Made by a program: the position numbers and the translations under genes
Assembly: GCA_963736115.1 (NCBI GenBank)
Contig: CAVTNR010000009.1
Location: 96,001-160,000, forward strand
Direction: 5' to 3'
Length of the DNA stretch: 64,000 nt
Source: an uncultured bacterium
GTDB lineage: Bacteria > Zhuqueibacterota > QNDG01 > DTFT01
The notes under the pieces: model-generated
Told to the model about the DNA's origin: nothing
The model's input: only the letters and a program-made list of their open reading frames with translations
Databases searched by the model: none
In this document: positions 6,198-60,089 of the stretch, piece after piece
Position numbering within the stretch: the first letter of the stretch is position 1
Layout: each line of letters starts with the position of its first letter

Positions 6198-6273
6198 CCC
6201 GCGGCTTTTGGAACCCCCGGCAGGTGCCGGGTGTTTCTCGAATCGCGAAAACATACTCAGCGCTTGAATGGAT

Positions 6274-6324
6274 GTCATTCCCGCGCAAGTGTCTTTTTCA
6301 TCCGCGCCAGCGGACGGGAATCCA
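6274..6324. repeat. CGTC-type REP hairpin (GTCATTCCCGCGCAAGCGGGAATCCA) interrupted by a 25-nt insert at 6290-6314
   Basis: Removing tgtctttttcatccgcgccagcgga restores the hairpin; a near-identical insert is at 60060-60083. Confidence 0.75.
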
Positions 6325-6478
6325 TTGTTTGAAAAAACGGGATGGCCGACGCGTCTGCGGGGTATCGCGACCCCGGATGCATGCGGCAGGCATTTCCCCG
6401 ATGCTTTGACACGCATGGAATTGTTTCTTCCGTCCGGTTTTCGCTTCTGACGAAGTCTCAGACCAAAGGATTGAAAAC

Positions 6479-14215: not shown

Positions 14216-14533
14216 CTATCCGATCCCGATCAACATTTTATACTTCTTCGTCCCCCTGATCCGTTTCAGCTCCTTCTCCCGACGCATCGCCTGCTTACGC
14301 GTCCGGAATTCCTCCCGGTAAATCTCTTTCCATCCGGAAAACCGCTTCGTCCACCCCCGGTTCCCGGCTGCATTGTGCTGACGGATACGCTTTTCCACAT
14401 CCTGCGAATACCCGATGTACATTCGGCTTTCGGCGGAGCGGAGAACATAGACTGTGAATGTCCTCCGCTTCCTGCGGACGCCAACAGTCTTAGCTGTTTT
14501 CCGCTTGATAGTGCTCGTTTTCTTCCTGTCCAT
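14216..14533 (-). CDS. Small GIY-YIG nuclease family protein
   Basis: VYVLRS...YIGYS.DVEKRIRQHN...AMRREKELK; basic N-terminal extension. Confidence 0.9.
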   Translation of the reverse strand: MDRKKTSTIKRKTAKTVGVRRKRRTFTVYVLRSAESRMYIGYSQDVEKRIRQHNAAGNRGWTKRFSGWKEIYREEFRTRKQAMRREKELKRIRGTKKYKMLIGIG

Positions 14534-59426: not shown

Positions 59427-60047
59427 ATGACCGACGTCATCCAAATTCATCCGGACAATCCCCAGAATCGGCTGATCGTCCGATGCGTTGACGTGATCCG
59501 CGAGGGCGGCGTCGTTGCGTATCCAACGGACTCGGGTTATGCGCTGGGCTGTCACCTCGGGGACAAATCGGCCCATGACCGGATCTGCCAGATCCGCCAG
59601 GTGGACGCCCATCACAACTTCACGCTTCTGTGCCGCGATCTGTCCGAGGTCTCATTATATGCGGTGTTTGACACGCCCGTGTACCGCCTGCTCAAGGCCC
59701 ATACGCCGGGACAGTACACGTTCATCCTCCAGGCCACCCGCGAAGTGCCCCGCAGGTGCATCCACCCCAAGCGGAAAACCATCGGACTTCGCGTGCCCAC
59801 CCACCGCATCGCACGGGACATTCTCGGGACGCTCAACGAACCCATGCTGACGACCACGCTCATTCTGCCCCCGGACGAGGATCCGCTCGCGGATCCGGAC
59901 GAAATCCTCCGCCGTCTCGACGGCCGGGTGGACCTGATCGTCGACGGCGGATGGACCGGATCGAGGCCCACCACTGTCGTGAACCTCATGGAATTTCCCT
60001 ATCGCGTCCTCCGCCGCGGAGAGGGCGACCCAACGGATTTCGAATAA
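59427..60047 (+). CDS. Sua5/YciO/YrdC family protein (YciO-like)
   Basis: IHPDNPQ.RLI, YPTDSGYALGC, HNFTL.C, KRKTIGLRVP. Confidence 0.9.
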   Translation: MTDVIQIHPDNPQNRLIVRCVDVIREGGVVAYPTDSGYALGCHLGDKSAHDRICQIRQVDAHHNFTLLCRDLSEVSLYAVFDTPVYRLLKAHTPGQYTFILQATREVPRRCIHPKRKTIGLRVPTHRIARDILGTLNEPMLTTTLILPPDEDPLADPDEILRRLDGRVDLIVDGGWTGSRPTTVVNLMEFPYRVLRRGEGDPTDFE

Positions 60048-60089
60048 TCCCCGCGCACGTGTTTTTTCATCCGCGCCAGCGGACGGGGG
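60048..60089. repeat. CCCCGCGCACGCGGGG-type hairpin interrupted by a 24-nt insert (60060-60083)
   Basis: tccccgcgcacg[tgttttttcatccgcgccagcgga]cggggg; insert matches 6290-6314 except for one base. Confidence 0.7.

What the first reader, a model, noticed from the sequence alone, without database searches (positions are those of the whole stretch)
6274..6324. Second nested micro-insert (24-25 nt) at the same position of a different REP family, twice, 54 kb apart
Seen: TGT(C)TTTTTCATCCGCGCCAGCGGA interrupts a hairpin at GCGCA(A/C)G^CGGG at 6290-6314 and 60060-60083. The host hairpins differ (TTCCCGCGCAAG/CGGGAA vs CCCCGCGCACG/CGGGG) but the inserts are nearly identical. Removal gives GTCATTCCCGCGCAAGCGGGAATCCA, a known CGTC-type REP pattern. 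The reverse complement of the 44-nt insert region (TGTCTT...GATCCCGCGTAGCGGG) shares the same layout: TGTCTT start, terminal CCGC..GCGG mini-hairpin, G^C junction at the loop-proximal stem. Inference: both inserts may be made by one class of enzyme that writes a short hairpin cassette into cruciform or ssDNA hairpins.
Basis: partly seen in the sequence, partly recalled or inferred. Interest (0 to 1): 0.72.

Follow-up and report, generated by a model that had tools for sequence, protein, structure and literature searches.

The report
Tiny hairpin insert inside NTS repeats
A 24-26-base piece of DNA that folds into a small hairpin sits at one exact spot inside a known kind of bacterial hairpin repeat (the NTS/Ssn type) and comes and goes between related genomes, so it looks like a very small site-specific mobile DNA piece whose enzyme is unknown.

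Summary
A 25-nt piece (window 6290-6314) and a 24-nt near-copy (60060-60083) each interrupt a hairpin at the same place, just after the loop-closing G and before the CGGG 3' arm. The two hosts are variants of one family, not two families. That family is the NTS / Ssn-related motif (CGTC-1 REP, dRS3) described by Chenal et al. 2025. Two small GIY-YIG (Ssn-like) genes in this genome are flanked by it.

I found 39 nested copies: 14 in this genome, 22 in three same-genus genomes, 3 on metagenome contigs. All lie at that same position, behind five kinds of left neighbour. Three clean filled/empty pairs differ by exactly the module. One variant with a private 1-nt deletion occurs only twice, 90 nt apart, in different flanks, inside a genome-specific insertion in nadK.

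The best reading (about 0.5) is a discrete, gene-less, site-specific micro-element. Gene conversion or template switching among NTS copies is a serious rival, and is clearly at work at one or more loci. No enzyme or full-length parent element was found. The module is restricted to one genus.

This scan has noted similar nested hairpin micro-inserts in other genomes, but none with this sequence. This is a new variant of a known kind.

The parts
6273..6289 (+). Copy 1, left half of the host NTS hairpin: tag TGTCAT, 5' arm ATTCCCGC, loop GCAA, loop-closing G
   Evidence: With 6315-6325 it fits the NTS consensus of PMC11893778 at 26 of 28 positions.
6290..6314 (+). Copy 1, nested 25-nt module: T-rich spacer TGTCTTTTTCA (6290-6300) and inner hairpin TCCGC-GCCA-GCGGA (6301-6314)
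6315..6324 (+). Copy 1, rest of the host 3' arm CGGGAAT and tail CCA
   Evidence: pairs with 6277-6283.
60047..60059 (+). Copy 2, decayed left half of the host hairpin (arm ATCCCCGC, loop GCAC, closing G). There is no GTCAT tag, and the upstream gene's stop codon at 60045-60047 overlaps it.
   Evidence: It fits the NTS consensus at 19 of 28 positions.
60060..60083 (+). Copy 2, nested 24-nt module (TGTTTTTTCA plus TCCGC-GCCA-GCGGA)
   Evidence: The ortholog in G003 (L026) is also filled, with one substitution.
60084..60089 (+). Copy 2, remnant of the host 3' arm (CGGGGG)

Best explanation
The 24-26-nt piece is a discrete, gene-less micro-element: a T-rich spacer of 10-13 nt starting with T, followed by a 5-bp hairpin TCCGC-GYCA-GCGGA. 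It is nested in NTS / Ssn-related-motif hairpins at one structural position, between the G that closes the loop and the rest of the 3' arm (CGGGG/CGGGA). There is no target duplication.

Inferred mechanism: it is copied or moved as a unit while the host repeat is single-stranded and folded. An enzyme acting in trans would recognise the foot of a hairpin. On the opposite strand the element lies directly 3' of the conserved arm. Candidates are an HUH/Y1-type strand transferase, or an Ssn-type nuclease working with host repair.

The host tolerates it because Ssn recognition needs the tag and stem but not the loop (published in vitro result). Once present, filled repeats also spread and are reshuffled by recombination between NTS copies and as parts of longer composite repeats.

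Shown: fixed ends, fixed position, several host contexts, exact presence/absence. Inferred: single-strand stage, enzyme, and direction (gain versus loss).
For: (1) Position. All 39 nested copies have G|T at the left junction. This count covers 36 copies, the C30 copy and two copies in nadK. In all 39 the hairpin foot abuts the 3' arm.

(2) Left neighbours. The 39 copies sit behind five kinds of left neighbour: a 6-nt loop (32), an 11-nt T-rich loop (4: L057, L024, L025, L033), the 44-nt module plus an 11-nt loop (L061), the 44-nt module plus a 6-nt loop (L059), and the 23-nt D hairpin module (L087).

(3) Clean filled/empty pairs that differ by exactly the module:
- G000 C12:262855 is filled, while G003:C301 is empty with the same loop CGGAAG and the same flanks.
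- G002 L061 is filled, while G000 C8:91589 and G003:C179 are both empty.
- Inside the nadK insertion, one of two tandem paralogous units is empty and the other filled, with the same loop CGTACG.

(4) Private variant. A module variant with a 1-nt deletion occurs exactly twice in all the DNA held. The two copies are 90 nt apart, in flanks that are only about 60% alike. They lie in an insertion that the three relatives lack.

(5) It is not part of the repeat consensus. Strict-pattern census: 142 matches in four genomes, with 35 six-nt loops, 82 eleven-nt loops, 20 filled and 5 with the D module. Reversed-pattern controls gave 0 (counted by hand).

(6) The loop triplets beside the module show the same spectrum as loops of empty copies.

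(7) The host loop is dispensable and extendable for Ssn cleavage in vitro (PMC11893778, section 11 passages).
Against: - No enzyme is linked to the module. The three Y1-transposase genes are each flanked by their own, different REP families. The published Ssn cut lies 5' of the tag, not at either module junction.
- No parent element with an ORF was found.
- The module is never found free of a host hairpin, so mobility independent of NTS copies is not shown.
- The direction of the three indels (gain or loss) is not polarised; the four genomes are about equally distant.
- At one locus the four genomes show four states. The filled allele also carries a different loop and left-arm variant while keeping the local right arm. 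That looks like a conversion tract, not a simple insertion.
- Arms that do not match each other are commoner in filled copies (3 of 20) than in empty ones (1 of 117), Fisher p = 0.0098. This fits chimeras.
- The spacer resembles the usual 3' flank of some NTS copies (GTCTTTTT). Tandem forms exist (C26:18024, L013/L056). The module could therefore have arisen from a rearranged NTS dimer.
- No strand bias relative to GC skew: 5 of 9 filled copies.
- All genomes are MAG-grade assemblies.
Confidence: 0.5

Rival explanations
1. There is no dedicated insertion. The module arose once, for example from a rearranged tandem pair of NTS repeats. It is now passed among NTS copies by gene conversion, template switching at stalled forks, or unequal recombination, using the conserved arms (7-15 nt) as homology. 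The interior of the repeat is simply a recombination mosaic, like BIME or NIME arrays.
For: - Locus C10:45498 shows four alleles in four genomes. The filled allele (G003 L062) brings its own loop and left-arm variant but keeps the resident right arm.
- At C2:102842 versus L024, both are filled but with different loop and spacer subtypes.
- Mismatched arms are enriched in filled copies, 3 of 20 versus 1 of 117.
- Tandem forms exist in which a whole right arm plus module is repeated.
- The spacer resembles the NTS 3' flank.
- NTS copies also travel inside a composite repeat of about 190 nt that is present in G000 and absent in G001.
- No enzyme was found.
Against: - Conversion needs homology on both sides. 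Yet the same module start abuts five unrelated left neighbours, and in L061 the resident 11-nt loop is kept.
- In nadK the identical private variant lies in two contexts with weak flank similarity, next to an empty paralog.
- Each new junction would need an illegitimate event at exactly the same base.
Confidence: 0.3
2. The module is a selected functional extension of the hairpin and is mostly inherited vertically with its repeat. It could be a second protein-binding hairpin, for instance for another of the genome's small GIY-YIG paralogs, or an RNA or terminator-like element. Presence/absence would then reflect loss.
For: - Orthologous filled copies are kept across species with few changes: window copy 2 and L026, C2:107486 and L027, C12:381471 and L013.
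- Compensatory arm changes keep the outer stem in a filled copy (L040, ATGCCTG/CAGGCAT).
- Another Ssn homolog (G003:C67) is flanked by a motif family whose conserved outer stem encloses variable inner hairpins.
- Both window copies lie just behind the stop codons of co-directional genes.
Against: - No Rfam family matches here at gathering thresholds.
- Neither strand has a U-run after the hairpin.
- Copy 2 is not more stable than its shuffles.
- The module is restricted to one genus.
- Most copies are not at orthologous sites.
- Two copies lie in frame inside a coding region.
- Function would not explain exact indels.
Confidence: 0.12
3. The two copies are a chance resemblance or an assembly artefact.
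For: None beyond the fact that all the genomes are metagenome-assembled.
Against: - 0 matches in 100 shuffles.
- Reversed-pattern controls gave 0.
- The same element occurs in four independently assembled genomes and on two metagenome contigs.
Confidence: 0.01

Closest known systems
NTS / Ssn-related motifs (SRM) with Ssn single-domain GIY-YIG ssDNA nucleases (Chenal et al. 2025, Nat Commun 16:2388, PMC11893778). I read the abstract, sections 7, 10 and 17, and passages of sections 4, 6, 8, 11, 12 and 14.
   Same: The host hairpin fits the NTS consensus at 26 of 28 positions once the module is left out. All 10 six-nt-loop copies match the authors' SRM search pattern. Two small GIY-YIG genes (C8:41063, C26:17760) are flanked on both sides by the motif. 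The paper shows that the loop can be removed or extended without loss of cutting, which explains why inserts are tolerated there.
   Different: The main text has 0 occurrences of 'nested' and no natural loop insert among the passages matching insertion/inserted. I could not see its supplements. Here the loop holds discrete modules that come and go. The organism is an uncultured bacterium far from Neisseria. No nuclease activity was tested.
CGTC-1 REP family (= dRS3) and REPs with long structured loops (Di Nocera et al. 2013, BMC Genomics 14:522, PMC3733652; passages read)
   Same: A TGTC variant of the tag, an 8-bp stem beginning with AT, a 4-nt loop and a CCA tail, as described for CGTC-1. 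The paper notes that this family has no dedicated transposase. It also reports self-complementary inner loop regions of up to 27 bp in GTAG-3 and GTAG-14 REPs.
   Different: Those long loops are described as family variants, not as units with exact presence/absence at orthologous sites or in several host contexts. The word 'nested' occurs 0 times.
Small dispersed repeats SDR1-8 of heterocystous cyanobacteria (Elhai et al. 2008, Genome Res 18:1484). The paper is not held. I saw only the citation and this scan's notes; the content is recalled.
   Same: As recalled: 21-27-nt repeats, some palindromic, found nested in other repeats, present or absent between relatives, with no enzyme known.
   Different: Different phylum and sequences. 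Here the target is one defined structural position in an Ssn-type hairpin. Not compared letter by letter.
IS200/IS605 'peel and paste' elements and RAYT-mobilised REP/REPIN (named in the PMC11893778 discussion; mechanism details recalled)
   Same: Hairpin-ended DNA, no target duplication, exact presence/absence, and an insertion point directly 3' of a conserved short sequence when read on the opposite strand. Three Y1 genes are present in the genome.
   Different: There is only one hairpin and 24-26 nt in all. No Y1 gene is flanked by this hairpin or by NTS; each has its own REP family. No strand bias was seen.
Mosaic repeat arrays (BIME of enterobacteria; NIME of Neisseria, where CGTC-1/dRS3 units are interleaved with other repeats; mentioned in PMC3733652)
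   Same: Palindromic units combined with other short repeat modules; recombination is thought to shuffle them.
   Different: In those arrays the modules lie between complete palindromes. Here they lie inside one palindrome, splitting the loop from the 3' arm.

Membership tests
NTS / SRM repeats (host hairpin) | Sequence fits the NTS consensus or SRM search pattern (tag GTC, AT-started stem, short loop, CYRG-type tail) | tested here: met
   Copy 1 without the module fits at 26 of 28 positions and copy 2 at 19 of 28. The SRM pattern hits all 10 six-nt-loop copies. The whole genome gives 53 hits against 33-42 in 5 first-order Markov simulations, so the pattern itself is loose.
NTS / SRM repeats (host hairpin) | Many dispersed copies, mostly intergenic | tested here: met
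   42 strict matches in G000 and 100 in three relatives; reversed controls gave 0. Both window copies are intergenic. Two copies lie inside nadK.
NTS / SRM repeats (host hairpin) | A small single-domain GIY-YIG (Ssn) gene flanked by the motif | tested here: met
   C8:41063 (96 aa) lies between arrays of the motif. C26:17760 has one copy upstream and one inverted copy downstream. The G001 ortholog has the same layout. Pfam reports PF01541 only.
NTS / SRM repeats (host hairpin) | The protein belongs to CDD cd10448 and cuts single-stranded DNA near the motif | not testable with these tools
   No CDD search is available. NCBIfam gave no family. The only PDB sequence hit is weak: 1zg2, E = 0.0039.
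IS200/IS605 or RAYT-REP type element (the module) | A Y1 (HUH) transposase gene flanked by the same hairpin | tested here: not met
   There are three PF01797 genes, each flanked by a different REP family, none by this hairpin or by NTS.
IS200/IS605 or RAYT-REP type element (the module) | No target duplication; exact gain or loss | tested here: met
   Junctions are G|T and A|C with no repeat; there are three clean pairs.
IS200/IS605 or RAYT-REP type element (the module) | Hairpins near both ends (feature recalled) | tested here: not met
   There is one hairpin only, at the 3' end.
MITE | Terminal inverted repeats and target-site duplication | tested here: not met
   Neither is present.
SDR-like very small mobile repeats (Elhai 2008, recalled) | 21-27 nt, nested in other repeats, variable between relatives | tested here: inconclusive
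   The size and behaviour fit. The paper and its sequences could not be read, so there is no sequence or target comparison.

The most novel reading that the evidence does not exclude
The module is one of a set of sub-30-nt 'micro-REPs' (with the 23-nt D module and perhaps the 44-nt double-hairpin module). An as yet unassigned single-strand DNA enzyme would insert and excise them exactly at the loop/stem junction of Ssn-recognised hairpins. They would then be natural footprints of how NTS/SRM-type repeats are built and multiply, which is an open question since CGTC REPs were found to lack a transposase. They would also be among the smallest site-specific mobile DNAs known, small enough to sit in frame inside an essential gene.
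Probability: 0.3. Interest if true: 0.75.

Novelty: new variant of a known kind. Interest (0 to 1): 0.5.

Why it matters
How REP-like and NTS-type hairpins spread is unsettled. The 2013 survey found no transposase for CGTC REPs. The 2025 Ssn paper shows a nuclease that cuts beside them but no way of copying them. Here a 25-nt unit with fixed ends, one exact target position and clean filled/empty alleles gives a concrete substrate and target pair. It can be tested with the handful of candidate enzymes in the same genome. The finding also shows in nature what the Ssn paper showed in vitro: the loop is a free site. Finally, hairpin repeats plus module can expand inside a housekeeping gene.

Tried and rejected
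- Rfam at gathering thresholds over the window found only a tRNA.
- The search for a parent element found nothing. Of 19 hits to the 16-nt core with up to 2 mismatches in the genome, 12 are in NTS context and 7 are unrelated GC-rich sequence. The genome-contig scan gave 10 loci, all in three MAGs of what appears to be the same genus. The metagenome scan gave 2 contigs. The viral scan gave 0.
- Public runs: no run held more than 0.12 of the sampled words, and all were contigs. Laying four of them showed no indel at the module. One related contig had the whole spacer replaced. Nothing can be concluded from this.
- Strand bias against GC skew: 5 of 10 six-nt-loop copies, 5 of 9 filled copies and 17 of 22 eleven-nt-loop copies (p = 0.017, uncorrected). 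There is no signal for the module.
- Orthologous locus of window copy 1: G002 has an inverted empty palindrome in an otherwise unalignable spacer, G001 has Ns there, and G003's contig ends. This is uninformative.
- I considered and dropped a link between the module and one ssn ortholog. NTS copies flank ssn genes anyway, and about half of the six-nt-loop type are filled.
- The published Ssn cut position, mapped onto the module's inner tag-like letters, does not fall on either junction (reasoned).
- NCBIfam gave no name for the small GIY-YIG proteins.
- Earlier-notes look-ups by sequence found nothing alike.
- Literature searches for nested inserts in REP/NTS repeats found no such paper.
- Elhai 2008 could not be read.
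- Supplements of the Ssn paper were not available and may list loop variants.

Full report
**What is there.** At window 6273-6324 a hairpin repeat is split by 25 extra bases at 6290-6314. At 60047-60089 a decayed copy of the same kind of hairpin is split by a 24-base near-copy at 60060-60083. The two lie 53,770 nt apart. A 21-nt core occurs twice in the window and never in 100 shuffles. Each extra piece consists of a T-rich spacer beginning TGT and a 5-bp hairpin TCCGC-GCCA-GCGGA. The 3' foot of that hairpin abuts the CGGG of the host's 3' arm. As single-stranded DNA, copy 1 folds into the outer 7-bp stem stacked on the inner hairpin (-10.7 kcal/mol, z = -2.06). Copy 2 is not better than its shuffles. 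Copy 1 lies between a carbamoyl-phosphate-synthase-type gene and a BacA/UppP gene. Copy 2 starts right at the stop codon of a Sua5/YrdC-type gene and lies upstream of an AMP-binding enzyme gene.

**What the host hairpin is.** A lead from this scan's earlier notes took me to Chenal et al. 2025 (PMC11893778). That paper defines the 28-nt Neisseria Transformation Sequence (NTS) and a looser 'Ssn-related motif' (SRM). Small GIY-YIG nucleases (Ssn) bind these in single-stranded DNA and cut a few bases 5' of the motif. With the module left out, copy 1 fits the NTS consensus at 26 of 28 positions and copy 2 at 19 of 28. The description of the CGTC-1 REP family (= dRS3) in Di Nocera et al. 2013 also fits: TGTC tag variant, 8-bp stem starting AT, 4-nt loop, CCA tail. 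So the two hosts are arm variants of one known family, not two families.

**Associated genes.** The genome has seven GIY-YIG (PF01541) matches. Two small genes are flanked by the motif on both sides. C8:41063 (96 aa) lies between tandem arrays of it. C26:17760 has a copy upstream and an inverted copy downstream, as does its 70%-identical ortholog in G001. I could not test cd10448 membership or activity. The three Y1-transposase genes of the genome are each flanked by their own, different REP families and not by this one.

**Census.** A strict pattern (both arms exact, interior 4-34 nt) gives 42 matches in this genome: 10 with a 6-nt loop, 22 with an 11-nt T-rich loop, 9 with the module and 1 with another 23-nt hairpin module (D). 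The control gave 0. The three same-genus genomes give 100 matches. By hand count these are 25, 60, 11 and 4 in the same four classes, and the control gave 0. So 20 of 142 strict matches carry the module, and it is not part of the consensus.

With looser criteria I count 14 nested copies in this genome. Eleven come, one with a 2-nt deletion is at C30:95423, and two are inside nadK. There is also one tandem form at C26:18024. Relatives hold 22 nested copies and two metagenome contigs hold 3, for 39 in all. The assembly is 87% complete, so these counts are lower bounds.

**Fixed ends, several hosts.** In all 39 copies the base before the module is the loop-closing G, the module starts with T, and the inner hairpin abuts the 3' arm. 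The left neighbours are of five kinds:
- a 6-nt loop (32 copies);
- an 11-nt loop (4 copies);
- the 44-nt module plus an 11-nt loop (L061);
- the 44-nt module plus a 6-nt loop (L059);
- the D module (L087), where two modules are stacked.

Spacers vary in sequence (10-13 nt) and form subtypes; the hairpin hardly varies. The loop triplets beside the module show the same spectrum as loops of empty copies.

**Exact presence/absence.**
- (i) G000 C12:262855 is filled and its ortholog in G003 (contig C301) is empty. They share the same flanks and the same loop CGGAAG.
- (ii) G002 L061 carries the module, and also the 44-nt module, where G000 C8:91589 and G003:C179 both have the plain 11-nt-loop repeat. 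G001 has no repeat there.
- (iii) The NAD kinase gene of this genome (C12, minus strand) has an insertion of hairpin repeats that is about 260 nt longer than the stretch found there in the three relatives. In it, two tandem units with identical 35-nt left flanks and the same loop CGTACG differ by the module. A third hairpin 90 nt on, with quite different arms, carries the identical 24-nt module. This module variant has a private 1-nt deletion and occurs nowhere else in the DNA I hold.

Three orthologous pairs are filled in both species with few changes: window copy 2 and L026, C2:107486 and L027, C12:381471 and L013. The family is therefore older than these species.

**Signs of recombination.** Behind one gene (C10:45498) the four genomes have four states at the orthologous repeat: two different 11-nt loops, a 6-nt loop, and a 6-nt loop plus module. 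The filled allele has the C variant of the left arm but the resident A variant of the right arm, like a conversion tract. At C2:102842 versus L024, both are filled but with different loop and spacer subtypes. Non-matching arms occur in 3 of 20 filled and 1 of 117 empty strict matches (Fisher p = 0.0098). Tandem forms repeat a right arm plus module (C26:18024, L013). The spacer resembles the GTCTTTTT that follows some NTS copies. One filled copy lies in a composite repeat of about 190 nt that G001 lacks. Recombination among copies therefore certainly reshuffles these repeats.

**Distribution.** An exact-pattern scan of one genome per species (185,579 species) found the module only in three MAGs, which appear to be the three same-genus genomes. 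The metagenome collection gave two contigs and the viral collection none. There is no ORF-bearing element ending in this hairpin.

**Mechanism.** I favour, at about 0.5, a discrete gene-less micro-element that enters (or leaves) folded single-stranded NTS hairpins at the loop/3'-arm junction without target duplication, moved in trans. The same end abuts five unrelated neighbours. Three pairs differ by exactly the unit. A private variant sits in two unlike contexts 90 nt apart. These points are hard to get from homology-driven exchange alone. The published finding that Ssn cutting does not need the loop and tolerates extensions there explains why the site is permissive.

The enzyme is unknown. 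The Ssn cut site is elsewhere, and the Y1 genes have other partners. The main rival, at about 0.3, is that the module arose once and is spread only by conversion or template switching between NTS copies. A functional extension (about 0.12) is not excluded and is compatible with either. I saw no strand bias against GC skew. Public runs gave no population evidence.

**Comparison and novelty.** The host is a member of a known family (NTS/SRM, CGTC-1 REP). The nested module is not mentioned in the parts of the two papers I read. 'Nested' occurs 0 times in each main text, and the supplements were not seen. Three literature searches found no account of it. Long self-complementary loops in other REP families are described. 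Very small nested mobile repeats are known from cyanobacteria (Elhai 2008; recalled, not read). This scan has noted nested hairpin micro-inserts in other genomes, but none with these letters. I therefore rate this a new variant of a known kind, of moderate interest.

**Limits.** All genomes are metagenome-assembled. The direction of the indels is not known. The class counts for the relatives are hand counts. The placement of the organism among Bacteroidota-related phyla comes from earlier notes and was not checked.

Noticed in passing
G000:C12:298962-300143 (minus strand; locus L122): The NAD kinase gene carries an in-frame insertion of hairpin repeats about 260 nt longer than the corresponding stretch in the three same-genus genomes. 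It includes one empty and two module-filled hairpins; the module is translated twice as VSFSSAQRT. Just downstream, after IDRG, the reading frame shifts, so the C-terminal domain lies in another frame. Either the gene is broken or this is an assembly error.
   Followed up: partly
It occurs inside NTS repeats just behind the tag, and also inside other palindromes (CCCCGGGG type). It is present or absent at orthologous NTS sites (L061, L059 versus G000).
   Followed up: partly
G000 C8:222575, C9:71832; G001-G003 (4 strict matches); L087: A third nested module (D) of 23 nt forms a 7-bp hairpin TCCCGGA...TCCGGGA within the NTS loop. On metagenome contig L087 it is stacked directly before the 25-nt module.
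   Followed up: partly
G000 C17:75072, C2:71517, C19:57621 (loci L043-L045): There are three single-copy Y1 (IS200-like/RAYT-type) transposase genes. Each is bracketed by its own REP family, two of them GTAG-tagged. These REPs often lie beside NTS copies and runs of 7-nt repeats (GGTTCCG type).
   Followed up: partly
G000 C8:40900-41950 (locus L093): A 96-aa Ssn-like gene lies between long head-to-tail arrays of overlapping NTS units (period about 27 nt). The G001 homolog (L094) has a similar array.
   Followed up: no
window 14237-14455 (minus strand): A small GIY-YIG gene of another subfamily lies here. In G001 its ortholog has an inverted filled NTS about 70 nt downstream (L096), while this genome has none there.
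   Followed up: partly
G000 C15:2041-2250: An 84-aa GIY-YIG gene lies between two tRNA-like sequences. This resembles the tRNA-associated GIY-YIG cassettes noted elsewhere by this scan.
   Followed up: no
G003:C67 (locus L091): An Ssn homolog (48% identity) is flanked by a different motif family (GTCATTGCGAG...GCAATC). Its conserved outer stem encloses inner hairpins of unrelated sequence.
   Followed up: no
G000 C27:151200-151500 (locus L102): A composite repeat of about 190 nt carrying a filled NTS is bounded by short direct repeats. It is absent from the orthologous spacer of G001. The 11-nt-loop NTS copies are usually flanked by G-rich runs on the tag strand.
   Followed up: no
G000 C9:202947 (minus strand): A possible free-standing relative: a GTCAT tag, an 8-nt spacer, an inner hairpin with a different loop (GTTG), then CGGGGATC. 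It has no 5' arm or loop of a host.
   Followed up: no
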